From Ilumatobacter sp. (lineage in GTDB: Bacteria; Actinomycetota; Acidimicrobiia; Acidimicrobiales; Ilumatobacteraceae): a stretch of 64,000 bases of DNA. Each line of letters begins with the position of its first letter. Position 1 is the stretch's first letter. Shown in pieces: positions 13,479-59,967 of the stretch. Location: positions 4,003 to 68,002 of the forward strand of contig NZ_JBDNIJ010000042.1 of the NCBI RefSeq assembly GCF_041688325.1, given 5' to 3'. The position numbers and the translations under genes are program-made. Below the pieces are notes generated by a model. The model had not been told where the DNA came from. It made no database searches and saw only the letters and a list, made by a program, of their open reading frames with translations.

Positions 13479-13871
13479 GCGGAGCTCATCGCCGACGCCT
13501 GACGGCGCCACCCGGCTGACGCCCAGATCCTGCTTTTCTCGGGCTGACGCCCGAGCTTGCTCCTGCGTCGCTGCGGTGGGGCGGAGTCGTGGTCATCCGT
13601 TTGCTGGCCCTCCCGGTCCTCCTGCACCTCCTCCTCCTGCTGGCCCTCCCGCTCACGGCCCTCGGGCTCCGGTAGATTGGACCGATGGCCGTAGCTGATC
13701 CGACTCTGTGGGTGTTTTTTGCCCTGGTGGTCGGGGCAACGGCGCAGACCTTGCAGCATGTGCTGCGATCACACCCATCGAACGACGATGGCGGTGTCCG
13801 GCGCGATCACTCGCTGCTCGACCCCGTCCCGGAAGGCGCCGCGGCGCACTTCCGCAGAAGGGATTTCTCCA

Positions 13872-15737
<1,866 letters not shown>

Positions 15738-15818
15738 GCCCTCGTGAGGGAGCGCAGGATGGGCAGTCGGATTCCTCAGGAGGTGTCACAGTGATTGGGG
15801 CTGTGCAATGCTGGCCCC

Positions 15819-16133
15819 ATGAAGATTCAGATCACCGAGGATGCCCGCAAGGTGTTGGCGAAAAAGGGCGGAACGATGTCGATCGACTTCATCCGCCCCA
15901 CCGGTTGAGGCAAGGTTGCAGAGGTGTCGGTCGACACCAACGTCAAGAATAAAAACCTCGCTCCGTACCGCAAGCTACGCCACCAGGAGTTTCGGATTCT
16001 GATCACCCCGCAGCTCATTGGTATGGCCGAGCAGATGCGGATTGTCACCAAGGGCAAGCTGACGAAGTCATTGTCGATTGAGTTTCAGGCGAAGCCTGGC
16101 GGCGGCGGCGACGACGCTGCCTGTTGCATCTGA
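15819..16133 (+). CDS. candidate selenoprotein, HesB/IscA-like small protein; in-frame TGA at 15906-15908 read as Sec
   Basis: ATG 15819 opens a frame with about 86% third-position GC. That frame reaches TGA after FIRPTG and continues with no further stop into the track ORF 15924..16133. A SECIS-like hairpin lies just downstream. The read-through product is 104 aa and ends in AACCI. TTG 15795, 12 nt after AGGAGG, is an alternative start. Confidence 0.55.
15915..15941 (+). promoter_or_regulatory. SECIS-like recoding hairpin
   Basis: GGUUGCAGA-GGUGUC-GGUC-GACACC-AAC. Six-bp upper stem 15923-15928/15933-15938, apical tetraloop GGUC at 15929-15932, possible lower stem GUU/AAC with a 5' bulge. 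The loop lies +24..+27 from the U of UGA. Confidence 0.5.
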
Positions 16134-16163
16134 GCAGATTCGAAAAGCGTAGAGTCAGCGCCC

Positions 16164-17438
16164 ATGGCTGATCTGCTTGCGCTCTCCAATGATGTCATCG
16201 ACAACGGGCTGACCGACCGTCCATTCAACCGAATCAACAACGAGCTCTCCGAAATCGCTGATGGCCTCGCCATTGTCGAGAGCTTTAGCCACAGCATCGT
16301 TGCCGACACCGGTGAAGGGCTCGTGGCCTTCGATGCCTCGCATGTCCAGACAGGCCAGAAGATCGTTGAGGCAATCAAGGGGTGGACCAGCGACCCGGTC
16401 ACCCACATCGTGTACACCCACGGACATGCTGATCATGTCGGTGGCAGCGTTGCCTTCGACGCCGCCTACGACGACATCACCGTGGTCGGTCACCGCAACG
16501 TCGACATTCGATTCGACCGATACGCCGCGACGAACGATTGGAACGTCCAGATTAACGCCCGCCAGTTCGGGGGTGTCTCCGGCGATTACGGGATGGGAGA
16601 GTTGCCCGAGTTCATCCCGTCGAACACCCATCGGCCCGACCACATCGTCGACGATCACGACGTCCTCGAGATCGGTAACAGGACCATCGAGCTGCACCAT
16701 GCACGCGGCGAGACCGACGATCACCTCTGGGGATGGTTTCCCGAAGAGAAGTGGATCACGTCAGGTGACTTCTTCATCTGGAACTTCCCGAACGCCGGAA
16801 ATCCGCAAAAGGTCCAGCGCTACCCGATCGAGTGGGCTGCAGCGCTCCGCAAGATGATTGCGAAGGAACCAGAACTGCTGCTCCCAGCGCACGGGCTGCC
16901 GATCGAAGGCAAGGACCGAATCGCCCGCGTGCTCGATGACGTTGCTACGTCCTTGGAACTCATCGTACGCGAGGTGCTCGACATGATGAACGCCGGTGAG
17001 GTCCTCGACACGATTGTGCATTCAGTCACTGTGCCCGAAGATTTGCTCGGCAAGCCCTACCTCCGGCCGCTCTATGACGAGCCAGAATTCGTCGTACGCG
17101 GTGTCTGGAGGCAGTTCGGAGGGTGGTGGGACGGTGCCCCGAGCCGGCTCAAGCCATCTCCTGATGCGGCGCTTGCGACCGAACTGGCATCCCTCGCCGG
17201 TGGCGTCAACGTGTTGATCGCTCGCGCTCGGACTGTTGCTGACCAGGGAGATCATCGACTGGCCTGCCATTTGGCCGATTTGGCCGGATGGGCTGCACCG
17301 GCCGACCGTGGCATTCACCGAGAGCGGGCGCTCATTTATCGAGGCCGACGAAAGCAGGAAACGTCGCTGATGGCCAAGGGGATCTTCGCGGGTGCCGCAC
17401 GCGAATCGGAGCAGATTGCTGATTCGGATCCGGACTGA
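16164..17438 (+). CDS. MBL-fold metallo-hydrolase, alkyl/aryl-sulfatase-like
   Basis: 424 aa. HxHxDH motif in YTHGHADHVGG. C-terminal segment RPLYDEPEFVVRGVWRQFGGWWDG resembles the alkyl-sulfatase dimerisation domain. No SCP2-like tail. Confidence 0.7.
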   Translation: MADLLALSNDVIDNGLTDRPFNRINNELSEIADGLAIVESFSHSIVADTGEGLVAFDASHVQTGQKIVEAIKGWTSDPVTHIVYTHGHADHVGGSVAFDAAYDDITVVGHRNVDIRFDRYAATNDWNVQINARQFGGVSGDYGMGELPEFIPSNTHRPDHIVDDHDVLEIGNRTIELHHARGETDDHLWGWFPEEKWITSGDFFIWNFPNAGNPQKVQRYPIEWAAALRKMIAKEPELLLPAHGLPIEGKDRIARVLDDVATSLELIVREVLDMMNAGEVLDTIVHSVTVPEDLLGKPYLRPLYDEPEFVVRGVWRQFGGWWDGAPSRLKPSPDAALATELASLAGGVNVLIARARTVADQGDHRLACHLADLAGWAAPADRGIHRERALIYRGRRKQETSLMAKGIFAGAARESEQIADSDPD

Positions 17439-17504: not shown

Positions 17505-17819
17505 ATGTACGCAGTAATCGCCTCAGGCGGCAAGCAGGAAAAAGTGGCTGAAGGCCAGCGAGTGCAGCTCGAACTGCTCGGCGCAGACGAAGGTAGCGAC
17601 GTGTCGCTCACCCCCGTCATGCTCGTCGACGGCGACACTGTGCTTGCAACGGCCGACGAGCTCGTAGGAGCTTCAGTCACCGGCAAGATCGTCGGCCGCG
17701 CAGCGGGTCCGAAGATCAACGGCTTCACCTTCAAACGCCGCACCAATAACCATCGTCGTTACGGCCATCGTCAAAAGTATGACGTGGTCGAAATTACGTC
17801 CATCAAATTCCCCAACTAA
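17505..17819 (+). CDS. rplU: 50S ribosomal protein L21
   Basis: MYAVIASGGKQEKVAEGQRV N-terminus, 104 aa. Confidence 0.97.
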   Translation: MYAVIASGGKQEKVAEGQRVQLELLGADEGSDVSLTPVMLVDGDTVLATADELVGASVTGKIVGRAAGPKINGFTFKRRTNNHRRYGHRQKYDVVEITSIKFPN

Positions 17820-17834
17820 AAGGGCGCTGATCTC

Positions 17835-18089
17835 ATGTCAAAGACAAAGGGCGGCGGTTCAACCCGCAACGGCCGTGACTCCAACGCACAACGCCTCGGC
17901 GTGAAGGTCTTCGGTGGCGAAGATATTCGCACCGGAGCCATCATTGTTCGCCAACGTGGAACCCGTTTCCACCCCGGCAACAACGTCGGTAAGGCCAAGG
18001 ACGATTCACTGTTCGCACTCGCTGACGGCGTCGTGCAGTTCGGTAACTACCGAGGCCGCAAGGCTGTTTCGGTCGTCTCCGGCAACTGA
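17835..18089 (+). CDS. rpmA: 50S ribosomal protein L27
   Basis: [28 protein letters not shown], 84 aa. Confidence 0.97.
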
Positions 18090-59756: not shown

Positions 59757-59833
59757 GGTGGTCATAGCTCAATAGGTAGAGCACCAGGTTGTGATCCTGG
59801 CGGTTGGGGGTTCAAGTCCCCTTGGCCACCCCA
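59757..59833 (+). tRNA. tRNA-His (GTG)
   Basis: Manual cloverleaf: G-1, acceptor GTGGTCA/TGGCCAC, D arm GCTC/GAGC, anticodon stem CCAGG/CCTGG with loop TTGTGAT, T arm GGGGG-TTCAAGT-CCCCT, discriminator C, encoded CCA. Confidence 0.9.
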
Positions 59834-59892
59834 TTCGCAGGCATCGAGCGGGTGTCTGGCAAGAAATTGCTTGATACCCTCTCCGCCCGCTT

Positions 59893-59967
59893 GCTTCTCT
59901 AGCTCAATGGCAGAGCAGTTGACTCTTAATCAATTGGTTCTGGGTTCGAATCCCAGGGGAAGCACCA
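59893..59967 (+). tRNA. tRNA-Lys (CTT)
   Basis: Manual cloverleaf: acceptor GCTTCTC/GGGAAGC, D arm GCTC/GAGC, anticodon stem GTTGA/TCAAT with loop CTCTTAA, T arm CTGGG-TTCGAAT-CCCAG, encoded CCA. Confidence 0.9.

What the first reader, a model, noticed from the sequence alone, without database searches (positions are those of the whole stretch)
15795..16133. Candidate selenoprotein: in-frame TGA plus an fdhF-like SECIS hairpin in a small HesB/IscA-like gene
Seen in sequence. A strong AGGAGG (15777-15782) precedes TTG 15795 and ATG 15819. From ATG 15819 a frame with about 86% third-position GC encodes MKIQITEDARKVLAKKGGTMSIDFIRPTG and reaches TGA at 15906-15908. The same frame then continues with no further stop through GKVAEVSVD... 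to 16133. The 69-codon ORF in the track (GTG 15924) is exactly in phase with it (105 nt apart) and has no good SD of its own. Fourteen nt after the TGA there is a hairpin, GGUGUC-GGUC-GACACC (15923-15938). Its apical GGUC loop and its flanks GGUUGCAG...CACCAA match the E. coli fdhF SECIS as I remember it (GGUUGCAGGUCUGCACCAA). The loop sits at +24..+27 from the UGA, against +22..+25 in fdhF. Inference. The 104-aa read-through product has the layout of an A-type Fe-S carrier (IscA/HesB). It has an IxIT start, a Gly-flanked Cys position occupied here by Sec (PTG-U-GK versus SG-C-SG), and a C-terminal Cys pair (AACCI versus CGCG). HesB-like selenoproteins have, to my recollection, been reported in bacterial selenoproteome surveys. 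A standard gene caller would miss or truncate this gene, and Sec use in this lineage would be uncommon.
Basis: partly seen in the sequence, partly recalled or inferred. Interest (0 to 1): 0.85.

Follow-up and report, generated by a model that had tools for sequence, protein, structure and literature searches.

The report
Unannotated IscA-fold selenoprotein gene with SECIS
This is very probably a real selenocysteine-containing protein gene that gene callers cut in two at its in-frame UGA: a small protein with the fold of an iron-sulfur carrier, found in marine Acidimicrobiia, a group already known to use selenocysteine.

Summary
Window 15819-16133 (+) is one 104-codon gene with an in-frame TGA at 15906-15908 and a 6-bp/GGUC-loop hairpin at 15923-15938. 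In 30 of 30 Ilumatobacteraceae loci and 7 of 7 distant Acidimicrobiia loci the interrupting codon is TGA, with protein-level conservation on both sides. Databases hold only the two halves: 29-37 aa N-terminal pieces and 56-73 aa C-terminal pieces. The only full-length homologs, two clusters, carry Cys (TGT/TGC) exactly at the TGA position and lack the hairpin. The hairpin is frozen at synonymous sites. Where it does vary, pairing is kept, once by a two-sided U-A to G-C change that costs two amino-acid changes. TGA is otherwise the usual stop codon here. Ilumatobacter is published as SelA/SelB/SelD-positive with 10-15 selenoproteins, so Sec use is not unusual in this lineage. An AlphaFold model of the Cys form matches IscA/SufA structures. 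A profile-profile alignment puts Sec30 on IscA Cys35. The nearest curated family is NF041239/PF28096 (CC/Se motif selenoprotein), but the score is below its cutoff and the partner Cys is missing. Verdict: a solid, unannotated, divergent member of a known kind. Its biochemical function is only inferred.

The parts
15819..16133 (+). Complete selenoprotein gene: ATG 15819, Sec-UGA at codon 30, terminator TGA 16131-16133. The product is 104 aa: MKIQITEDARKVLAKKGGTMSIDFIRPTG-U-GKVAEVSVDT...DDAACCI.
   Evidence: Both halves are conserved in frame in 30 loci. The start at M-(K/E/Q/R)-I-x-I-T is the conserved one, because several orthologs have a stop codon just upstream of it.
15906..15908 (+). In-frame UGA read as selenocysteine (residue 30).
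   Evidence: The codon is TGA in 30/30 Ilumatobacteraceae loci and 7/7 distant loci. It is never TAA or TAG and never a sense codon. The only full-length homologs have TGT/TGC (Cys) here. It aligns with IscA Cys35.
15923..15938 (+). SECIS hairpin GGUGUC-GGUC-GACACC. The 6-bp stem starts 14 nt after the UGA. The apical loop GGUC is at 15929-15932.
   Evidence: Alone it folds at -9.6 kcal/mol, z = -2.7. Its synonymous sites are almost invariant (Mann-Whitney p = 0.0002). The identical 16-mer sits at +14 or +17 nt in Sec forms only about 35% identical in protein. It is absent from both Cys forms. One compensatory U-A to G-C change and three G-U wobble variants were seen.
16122..16127 (+). C-terminal Cys-Cys (residues 102-103) at the end of a Gly/Asp-rich tail. 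It is the probable partner of Sec30.
   Evidence: One tail Cys is invariant in the 19 Ilumatobacteraceae sequences and nearly invariant family-wide. The motif varies: CC, CxxC, a single C, or HxHGxxCxH in distant members. The tail is modelled as disordered, with pLDDT below 50.
15866..15898 (+). Second hairpin, GGGCGG...CCGCCC, ending 7 nt before the UGA. It is specific to one clade and its role is unknown.
   Evidence: It folds at -18.2 kcal/mol, z = -2.4. RNAalifold keeps it in 28 loci, and all 7 variant cells in the outer stem are G-U wobbles. Synonymous variation is reduced in codons 16-26 (p = 0.001). It is lost in distant Sec forms L035-L038, so it is not a universal part of the element.
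15778..15797 (+). AGGAGG (15778-15783) and an in-frame TTG (15795-15797): a possible alternative start that would add 8 residues in the closest relatives only.
   Evidence: The extension LGLCNAGP is not conserved beyond the nearest relatives and is closed by stop codons in L001, L003 and L010.

Best explanation
Window 15819-16133 encodes one 104-residue selenoprotein. SHOWN: the UGA at 15906 is a conserved in-frame codon, not a terminator. A conserved RNA hairpin with a GGUC loop follows it at 14 nt. The two full-length homolog clusters have Cys at that position and no hairpin. The protein family has the A-type Fe-S carrier (IscA/SufA/HesB) fold, and Sec30 sits at the position of IscA Cys35. 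INFERRED MECHANISM: while the ribosome is at the UGA, the SelB-GTP-Sec-tRNA(Sec) complex binds the hairpin through the G and U of the loop, as on E. coli fdhF mRNA, and inserts selenocysteine. INFERRED FUNCTION (less certain, about 0.4): Sec30, in the beta2-beta3 loop, works with the Cys (or Cys pair) on the flexible C-terminal tail. Together they could ligate iron, an Fe-S cluster or another thiophilic metal, as the three Cys of IscA do, or they could cycle through a selenenylsulfide as a small redox or transfer protein. Gene callers split the gene into a 29-37 aa piece and a 66-73 aa piece, so it is annotated only as a truncated hypothetical protein, including in the complete Ilumatobacter coccineus genome.
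For: TGA is kept in 30/30 and 7/7 further loci. Residues that never change before the TGA still vary in their codons (codons 3, 9, 13), which shows the N-terminal piece is translated and under protein-level selection. In 5.8 billion protein clusters only fragments exist: the top 120 hits are 66-73 aa, and the N-terminal query finds only 29-37 aa pieces. In the exhaustive search of 1.84 billion representatives, about 40 of the 43 hits are short proteins whose match starts at residue 1, and every one whose sequence was read begins (M/V)(S/A)V(D/G/A)T. One hit is a full-length Cys form. The Cys forms have TGT/TGC and no hairpin. The hairpin's synonymous sites are frozen, p = 0.0002, including the two four-fold degenerate loop positions. 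A compensatory U-A to G-C change that costs S-to-A and D-to-A occurs in L039, and wobble-only changes occur in L008 and L040. The loop GGUC is identical to the verified fdhF loop. TGA is the normal stop codon here (23 of 32 long ORFs) and ends this same gene. Ilumatobacter coccineus and I. nonamiensis are listed as SelD+/SelA+/SelB+ with 15 and 10 selenoproteins (PMC5029168). The related order Actinomarinales also has selA/B/C/D (bioRxiv 10.64898/2026.04.03.716425). Fold: the AlphaFold2 model has pLDDT 80.7; the Foldseek top 10 are all IscA/SufA/HesB-fold proteins with probability 0.99-1.0; hhalign gives probability 87%, E = 3.9e-6, with Sec30 on Cys35. NF041239, a curated selenoprotein family, matches all 19 members tested, and its profile has a conserved Cys/Sec column at position 30 (C30A costs 5.1 bits).
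Against: No selA, selB, selD or tRNA-Sec lies in the 64-kb window or in any fetched locus. The machinery is therefore documented only for the genus, from the literature, and not for this genome. No Rfam family matches the hairpin. The longer 45-66 nt contexts do not fold significantly better than shuffles (z about -0.75). Covariation rests on one compensatory pair in one sequence, and 74 of 500 shuffles reach that count. The hairpin lacks the bulged U of the fdhF SECIS, and its spacing is 14 or 17 nt rather than 11. The structure model is of the Cys-form homolog, about 33% identical to the window protein, with a shallow alignment for its N-terminal third. The C-terminal tail is not modelled, so contact between Sec30 and the tail Cys is unproven. 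There is no experimental evidence for selenium incorporation or for any ligand.
Confidence: 0.9

Rival explanations
1. The UGA is read through without selenocysteine. A near-cognate tRNA inserts Trp, Cys or Arg, and the downstream hairpin merely stimulates read-through.
For: The data show directly only that the UGA is decoded, not which residue is inserted. No Sec machinery could be examined in this genome. Downstream hairpins can stimulate stop-codon read-through in general (established knowledge).
Against: The only sense-codon homologs have Cys, the standard Sec counterpart, at this position. The position corresponds to a metal-ligand Cys of IscA. The loop is the SelB-binding GGUC of fdhF and is invariant at two four-fold degenerate sites. 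The genus is a documented Sec user with 10-15 selenoproteins. The nearest curated family is a selenoprotein family with a Cys/Sec column at this position.
Confidence: 0.05
2. These are two independent small ORFs, or a gene broken by a nonsense mutation (a pseudogene). The hairpin would then be a terminator-like or otherwise unrelated element.
For: This is how every public annotation treats the locus: 29-37 aa and 66-73 aa hypothetical proteins. One locus, L029, does carry a frameshift.
Against: The stop is always TGA, always at the same codon and always in the same frame in 37 loci, spanning protein identities from about 35% to 100%. The two pieces together make one IscA-like domain: beta1-alpha1-beta2 lies before the stop and the rest after it. 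The full-length Cys forms are colinear with the read-through product. The C-terminal piece has no Shine-Dalgarno sequence of its own, and its called 'start codon' lies inside the hairpin.
Confidence: 0.02
3. The 16-nt palindrome-like sequence is conserved because the peptide E-V-S-V-D-T is essential to the protein, not because of an RNA structure.
For: D39 and T40 are invariant in Cys forms too, so part of the sequence is under protein-level constraint.
Against: Synonymous sites in codons 35-40 are frozen, while other invariant residues vary freely in their codons. The Cys forms have A-A-I instead of V-S-V, so the protein tolerates change there. In L039 the peptide changes to V-A-V-A-T by exactly the two substitutions that keep the stem paired.
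Confidence: 0.03

Closest known systems
[quoted passage not shown]
   Same: It is the only family any library matches. All 19 members tested hit it over nearly its full length (profile positions 1-89 of 91; best E = 4.4e-7). The profile has a conserved Cys/Sec column at our Sec30 (C30A costs 5.1 bits). The Cys forms of our clade carry a precomputed PF28096 hit. Both are small proteins of about 90-105 aa with Sec and Cys forms.
   Different: Scores are below the curated cutoff: 26 bits for the window protein and 35.6 for P0172, against a cutoff of 40. The partner Cys that gives the family its name and its CxxU motif is absent. Ours reads P-T-G-U-G, and adding Cys at +1 or at -3 raises the score by 3.6 and 2.1 bits. 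Our clade instead has its second Cys on a C-terminal tail beyond the end of the profile. It is restricted to Acidimicrobiia, and nearly all members are Sec forms.
HesB-like selenoprotein, TIGR01911 (motif UxGP)
   Same: Both are small HesB/IscA-fold proteins in which Sec replaces the first conserved cluster-ligand Cys.
   Different: There is no HMM match even at E <= 10. The motif is U-G-K/G rather than UxGP. It is a separate sequence family that arrives at the same solution.
A-type Fe-S carriers IscA / SufA / ErpA (PF01521, TIGR00049; PDB 1R94, 1S98, 1X0G, 2D2A)
   Same: The fold is the same: beta-alpha-beta-beta-beta-beta-alpha-beta-beta, TM about 0.6, Foldseek probability 0.99-1.0 for the top 10 matches. 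hhalign gives probability 87% over 83 columns, with (S/T)-G-C/U-(S/G) aligned, so Sec30 corresponds to Cys35. Cys residues lie near the C-terminus in both.
   Different: No sequence-level HMM hit. Identity is 13-17%. The C-terminal C-G-C-G motif is replaced by a variable tail carrying CC, CxxC, a single C or HxHGxxCxH. Sec replaces Cys. No isc or suf genes are adjacent: the neighbours are RNase E/G, an MBL-fold alkylsulfatase-like gene, rplU and rpmA.
E. coli fdhF SECIS (bacterial SelB-binding stem-loop)
   Same: The apical loop GGUC is identical, including the G and U that SelB contacts (established knowledge). The stem begins GGU and ends ACC. The element lies inside the coding sequence just 3' of the UGA, with the loop at +24 against +22 in fdhF.
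   Different: There is no bulged U. The stem is 6 perfect base pairs. The spacing from UGA to the hairpin is 14 or 17 nt instead of 11. There is no conserved lower helix.

Membership tests
Bacterial selenoprotein gene (Sec-UGA + bSECIS) | In-frame UGA conserved among orthologs, with coding conservation on both sides | tested here: met
   The codon is TGA in 30/30 loci and in 7/7 distant loci. Both halves are conserved at protein level while their codons vary synonymously.
Bacterial selenoprotein gene (Sec-UGA + bSECIS) | Homologs with Cys at the position of the UGA | tested here: met
   P0172 and P0174 read ...G-R/K-G-C-G-G..., with codons TGT and TGC. They are rare: two clusters against hundreds of Sec-form clusters.
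Bacterial selenoprotein gene (Sec-UGA + bSECIS) | Stem-loop shortly 3' of the UGA with G/U in the apical loop, present in Sec forms and absent from Cys forms | tested here: met
   A 6-7 bp stem with a GGUC loop sits at +14 or +17 nt in all 37 Sec-form loci. It is absent from L030 and L034, the Cys forms.
Bacterial selenoprotein gene (Sec-UGA + bSECIS) | selA, selB, selC and selD present in the same genome | not testable with these tools
   None are present in the window or in any locus. The rest of this genome is not available. Literature only: I. coccineus, whose ortholog is L001, and I. nonamiensis are SelD+/SelA+/SelB+ (PMC5029168 Table S1).
Bacterial selenoprotein gene (Sec-UGA + bSECIS) | Selenium demonstrated in the protein | not testable with these tools
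   This needs 75Se labelling or mass spectrometry.
CC/Se motif family (NF041239 / PF28096) | HMM score at or above the curated cutoff (40 bits) | tested here: not met
   The window protein scores 26.0 bits. All 19 members match, with a best E of 4.4e-7; only the first member's bit score was returned. The Cys form P0172 scores 35.6 bits.
CC/Se motif family (NF041239 / PF28096) | Paired Cys-Cys/Sec motif (CxxU per PMC13188914) | tested here: not met
   The sequence is R-P-T-G-U-G-K, with no Cys within 4 residues. The profile rewards Cys at +1 (+3.6 bits) and at -3 (+2.1 bits), and we have neither.
CC/Se motif family (NF041239 / PF28096) | Conserved Cys/Sec column aligned with the recoded position | tested here: met
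   C30A lowers the score from 26.0 to 20.9 bits.
CC/Se motif family (NF041239 / PF28096) | Pfam PF28096 match | not testable with these tools
   The local Pfam copy lacks the model, because P0172 itself gets no hit. Precomputed PF28096 hits exist for the clade's Cys forms P0172 and P0174.
HesB-like selenoprotein (TIGR01911) | HMM match and UxGP motif | tested here: not met
   No TIGR01911 hit at E <= 10. The motif is U-G-K-V.
A-type Fe-S carrier (IscA/SufA/ErpA) | Sequence-profile match (PF01521 / TIGR00049 / PDB sequences) | tested here: not met
   No hit in Pfam, NCBIfam or the PDB profile search at E <= 10.
A-type Fe-S carrier (IscA/SufA/ErpA) | HesB/IscA fold | tested here: met
   Tested on the model of the Cys-form homolog (pLDDT 80.7). 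The Foldseek top 10 are all IscA/SufA/HI1723/AQ_1857/DsrR, with probability 0.99-1.0 and TM 0.5-0.66. hhalign gives probability 87%.
A-type Fe-S carrier (IscA/SufA/ErpA) | Three ligand Cys: C35 plus the C-terminal C-x-C | tested here: inconclusive
   The first ligand position is occupied by Sec. The C-terminus carries CC, CxxC or a single C on a longer, disordered tail that falls outside the hhalign alignment.
fdhF-type SECIS | GGUC apical loop with G23/U24 | tested here: met
   The loop GGUC is invariant in all Sec forms. The fdhF sequence was verified.
fdhF-type SECIS | Bulged U in the upper stem and 11-nt spacing from the UGA | tested here: not met
   The stem is 6 perfect base pairs. The spacing is 14 nt, or 17 nt in L033 and L037.

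The most novel reading that the evidence does not exclude
This may be an almost obligately selenocysteine-dependent branch of the IscA/HesB fold, with about 40 Sec-form representative clusters against one Cys-form cluster. In it a selenolate would replace the first cluster or metal ligand. Its SECIS is so constrained that it dictates the protein sequence: E-V-S-V-D-T is in effect an RNA-imposed peptide, and a stem change forces two amino-acid changes. That would give a natural system for asking what a Sec ligand does in Fe-S or metal trafficking in aerobic marine Actinomycetota. The Ilumatobacteraceae-specific hairpin just 5' of the UGA could be an additional recoding modulator with no described precedent.
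Probability: 0.2. Interest if true: 0.65.

Novelty: new member of a known kind. Interest (0 to 1): 0.45.

Why it matters
The finding corrects an annotation error that recurs in every public genome and metagenome of this lineage, including the complete genome of the cultured Ilumatobacter coccineus. One conserved gene is recorded there as one or two meaningless mini-ORFs. It adds a family to the selenoproteome of an abundant group of marine Actinomycetota. It links the curated but functionally blank 'CC/Se motif' family to the A-type Fe-S carrier fold, which gives that family a first testable hypothesis: Sec at the IscA Cys35 ligand position. The SECIS is also a clean example of an RNA element constraining protein sequence, and it could seed a lineage-specific SECIS model, since Rfam has none that detects it.

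Tried and rejected
I worked around this with profiles of database fragments and with the natural Cys form.

2. Rfam found nothing but tRNAs, at gathering level on the whole window and at permissive level on 15700-16200. It has no model for this kind of bacterial SECIS.

3. Pfam found nothing. The local copy lacks PF28096.

4. The family profile found nothing against PDB sequences.

5. A crude GC3-based scan for other TGA-split genes returned 13 candidates, missed the true one and was not informative. The hairpin-aware scan found only the target in the window.

6. Folding longer contexts of 45-66 nt gave no significant stability and no conserved lower helix.

7. The upstream hairpin was considered as part of the recoding signal. 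It was rejected as a universal component because distant Sec forms lack it.

8. Adding N-terminal fragments to the structure alignment failed, because MSID was pulled onto MSVD, so they were left out.

9. Searches for tRNA-Sec in all fetched loci were negative, as expected for such small stretches.

10. Literature searches for this specific family in Ilumatobacter or Acidimicrobiia found no description of it. The Haft and Tolstoy 2025 paper (PMC12013261) is not held.
Full report
**Observation.** Reading window 15600-16400 and translating 15795-16136 confirms the layout.
- ATG is at 15819, followed by 29 sense codons (MKIQITEDARKVLAKKGGTMSIDFIRPTG).
- TGA is at 15906-15908. The same frame then runs for 74 more codons to the terminator TGA at 16131-16133.
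- The ORF that a gene caller would report (GTG 15924, 69 aa) is in phase with the ATG.
- The hairpin GGTGTC-GGTC-GACACC is at 15923-15938, 14 nt after the TGA.
- Two minor corrections: AGGAGG is at 15778-15783, and it is too far (35 nt) from the conserved ATG to be its Shine-Dalgarno sequence.
The 42-mer around the fdhF UGA matches at 100% inside fdhF in 5,419 of 5,426 E. coli genomes.
- A filter for 'in-frame TGA, then 8-22 nt, then a stem of at least 5 bp with a GGUN loop, open frame on both sides' finds only this site in the whole window on both strands.

**Is the UGA decoded?** The comparative evidence is strong.
- In the 5.8-billion-cluster protein collection, the read-through product finds 166 relatives. 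All of the best 120 are 66-73 aa C-terminal pieces from Ilumatobacter and other Acidimicrobiia.
- A query made of the N-terminal 40 residues finds only 29-37 aa pieces that stop at the same place.
- The DNA of 29 related loci, including the complete genome of I. coccineus (L001), was examined together with the window, giving 30 sequences. All 30 have TGA at the same codon. It is never TAA or TAG and never a sense codon. The protein sequence is conserved on both sides.
- Residues that never change before the TGA (I3, A9, L13) vary freely in their codons. So the N-terminal segment is translated and under selection as protein.
- One locus, L029, has a later frameshift.

**Wider family and Cys forms.** A profile of the C-terminal pieces was run against 1.84 billion representative proteins with no word filter. 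It finds 43 proteins.
- About 40 of them are short (56-82 aa, plus one apparently frameshifted 102-aa call) and match from their first residue. Every one whose sequence was read begins (M/V)(S/A)V(D/G/A)T. So they are truncated in the same way.
- Seven of their loci were fetched. All have TGA one hairpin-spacing upstream, preceded by a recognisable N-terminal segment.
- Those that carry names are Acidimicrobiales or Actinomycetota MAGs.
- Exactly one hit, P0172 (101 aa), is full length. A search with it finds only one more, P0174.
- Both read ...G-(R/K)-G-C-G-G... with Cys (TGT, TGC) aligned on the UGA.

**The hairpin is an RNA-level element.**
- Among 26 distinct Ilumatobacteraceae sequences, the six hairpin codons (GAG GTG TCG GTC GAC ACC) show 0-4% minor codons. 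Other invariant residues show 8-62% (Mann-Whitney p = 0.0002).
- The two loop positions that are four-fold degenerate sites never change.
- The identical 16-mer is present at +14 or +17 nt in Sec forms whose proteins are only about 35% identical to the window's.
- Both Cys forms lack it. The peptide there is E-A-A-I-D-T, encoded GAGGCCGCCATCGACACC, and no hairpin forms.
- Where the stem does change, pairing is kept. L008 and L040 have G-U wobbles. L039 has GGUGGC-GGUC-GCCACC, a two-sided U-A to G-C change paid for by two amino-acid substitutions, S to A and D to A.
- The formal count gives 88% of cells paired against 21-58% for slid registers. It finds one compensatory pair and one broken terminal pair. 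This is modest, because the element is nearly invariant.
- The hairpin alone folds at -9.6 kcal/mol (z = -2.7). Longer contexts are not significantly stable, and no lower helix is conserved.
- Rfam has nothing for it.

**Is it a reassigned code, or is it Sec?**
- TGA terminates 23 of 32 long high-GC3 ORFs in the window, and it terminates this gene itself. The recoding is therefore local.
- No Sec machinery lies in the window or in the fetched loci. It could not be checked for this genome.
- For the genus, Peng et al. 2016 (PMC5029168) list I. coccineus and I. nonamiensis as SelD+/SelA+/SelB+ (Table S1), with 15 and 10 selenoproteins (Table S2).
- A 2026 preprint reports selA, selB, selC and selD in all Actinomarinales, another order of the same class.
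- So Sec use is established here, not unusual.

**What protein is it?**
- HMMER-level searches see nothing in Pfam or in PDB sequences.
- In NCBIfam the only match is NF041239, 'CC/Se motif family (seleno)protein'. It covers the full length of the profile but scores 26 bits against a cutoff of 40. All 19 members tested hit it.
- The Cys form scores 35.6 bits and carries a precomputed Pfam PF28096 (CC_Se_fam) hit. The local Pfam copy lacks that model.
- A 2026 review lists NF041239 as a predicted selenoprotein family first seen in Moorella thermoacetica, with motif CxxU (PMC13188914).
- The profile was probed with point mutants. C30A costs 5.1 bits, so the profile has a Cys/Sec column at our Sec position. 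G31C gains 3.6 bits and P27C gains 2.1 bits, so the canonical family has a neighbouring Cys that this clade lacks.

**Fold.**
- An AlphaFold2 model of P0172 has pLDDT 80.7 and pTM 0.69. Its topology is beta-alpha-beta-beta-beta-beta-alpha-beta-beta, with a disordered tail.
- Foldseek against the PDB returns, as its ten best matches, only A-type carrier or HesB-fold proteins: SufA 2D2A, IscA 1X0G/1R94/1S98, HI1723, 2P2E, AQ_1857 and DsrR. Probabilities are 0.99-1.0 and TM scores 0.5-0.66.
- A small IscA/SufA profile was built from sequences verified against the PDB. It aligns with the family profile at 87% probability (E = 3.9e-6, 83 columns). R-P-T-G-U-G falls on R-T-S-G-C-S-G, so Sec30 corresponds to IscA Cys35.
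- The known HesB-like selenoprotein family TIGR01911 (motif UxGP) does not match.
- The C-terminal tail always ends with CC, CxxC or a single Cys in the Ilumatobacteraceae. In distant members it is often HxHGxxCxH.

**Mechanism.**
- Shown: the UGA is a conserved decoded codon, and a constrained hairpin specific to Sec forms follows it.
- Inferred: SelB carrying Sec-tRNA(Sec) binds the GGUC loop, as on fdhF mRNA, and inserts Sec at residue 30.
- Inferred with less confidence: Sec30 and the tail Cys or His residues together bind iron, an Fe-S cluster or another thiophilic metal, or they form a selenenylsulfide.
- Genomic context is not informative. In Ilumatobacteraceae the gene sits between RNase E/G and rplU-rpmA, sometimes with an MBL-fold alkylsulfatase-like gene in between. 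Elsewhere the neighbours differ.

**Verdict.** This is a genuine but unannotated selenoprotein gene. It is a divergent, almost exclusively Sec-containing, Acidimicrobiia-specific relative of the curated CC/Se family, and it has an IscA-like fold. It is a new member of a known kind. It is valuable for annotation and as a lead on function, but it is not a new principle.

Noticed in passing
window 15866-15898 (+): A strong hairpin (GGGCGG...CCGCCC, -18.2 kcal/mol, z = -2.4) ends 7 nt before the Sec-UGA. Synonymous variation is depleted in codons 16-26, and all 7 stem variants are G-U wobbles. It is conserved in the Ilumatobacteraceae but lost in more distant Sec forms, so its role is unexplained. 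It might modulate recoding, or it might be a by-product of the K-G-G and I-R-P codons.
   Followed up: partly
L039 1325-1357; L040 1167-1199: Here the SECIS stem appears to dictate the protein sequence. In L039 the stem change U-A to G-C turns the peptide V-S-V-D-T into V-A-V-A-T. In L040 D becomes G through a wobble-preserving change.
   Followed up: yes
distant family members P0145, P0158, P0159, P0161, P0164-P0166, P0169, P0171 (e.g. L033, L037, L038): Their C-terminal tails end in a His-rich motif, HxHGxxC(R/Q)H, instead of CC or CxxC. That looks like a metal-binding site. The L039 copy sits next to DUF302 and DUF305 genes.
   Followed up: no
L029 3001-3307: One Ilumatobacteraceae MAG copy keeps the TGA and the hairpin but is frameshifted after about residue 48. 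It is either a pseudogene or an assembly error.
   Followed up: no
L006 (JBLIKS010000035.1): A contig labelled 'Candidatus Azotimanducaceae bacterium' carries a copy 95% identical to the window protein. It is probably an Ilumatobacter contig that was mis-binned.
   Followed up: no
window 13719-15737, 16164-17438, 17505-18089: Flanking genes: an RNase E/G homolog with a long Arg/Lys/Gly-rich N-terminal region upstream; a 424-aa MBL-fold alkylsulfatase-like gene 31 nt downstream (family inferred from the equivalent gene in L003, which has Lactamase_B + Alkyl_sulf_dimr); then rplU and rpmA. The MBL gene is present in only some orthologous loci.
   Followed up: partly
window 59758-59967 (+): tRNA-His(GTG) and tRNA-Lys(CTT) lie side by side. 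They are the only RNA genes detected in the window, and there is no tRNA-Sec.
   Followed up: no
L034 8-826 (-): The contig carrying the Cys-form homolog P0174 encodes a heliorhodopsin about 4.5 kb upstream. Both Cys forms sit next to PPK2, MalQ and isocitrate dehydrogenase genes, a context quite different from that of the Sec forms.
   Followed up: no
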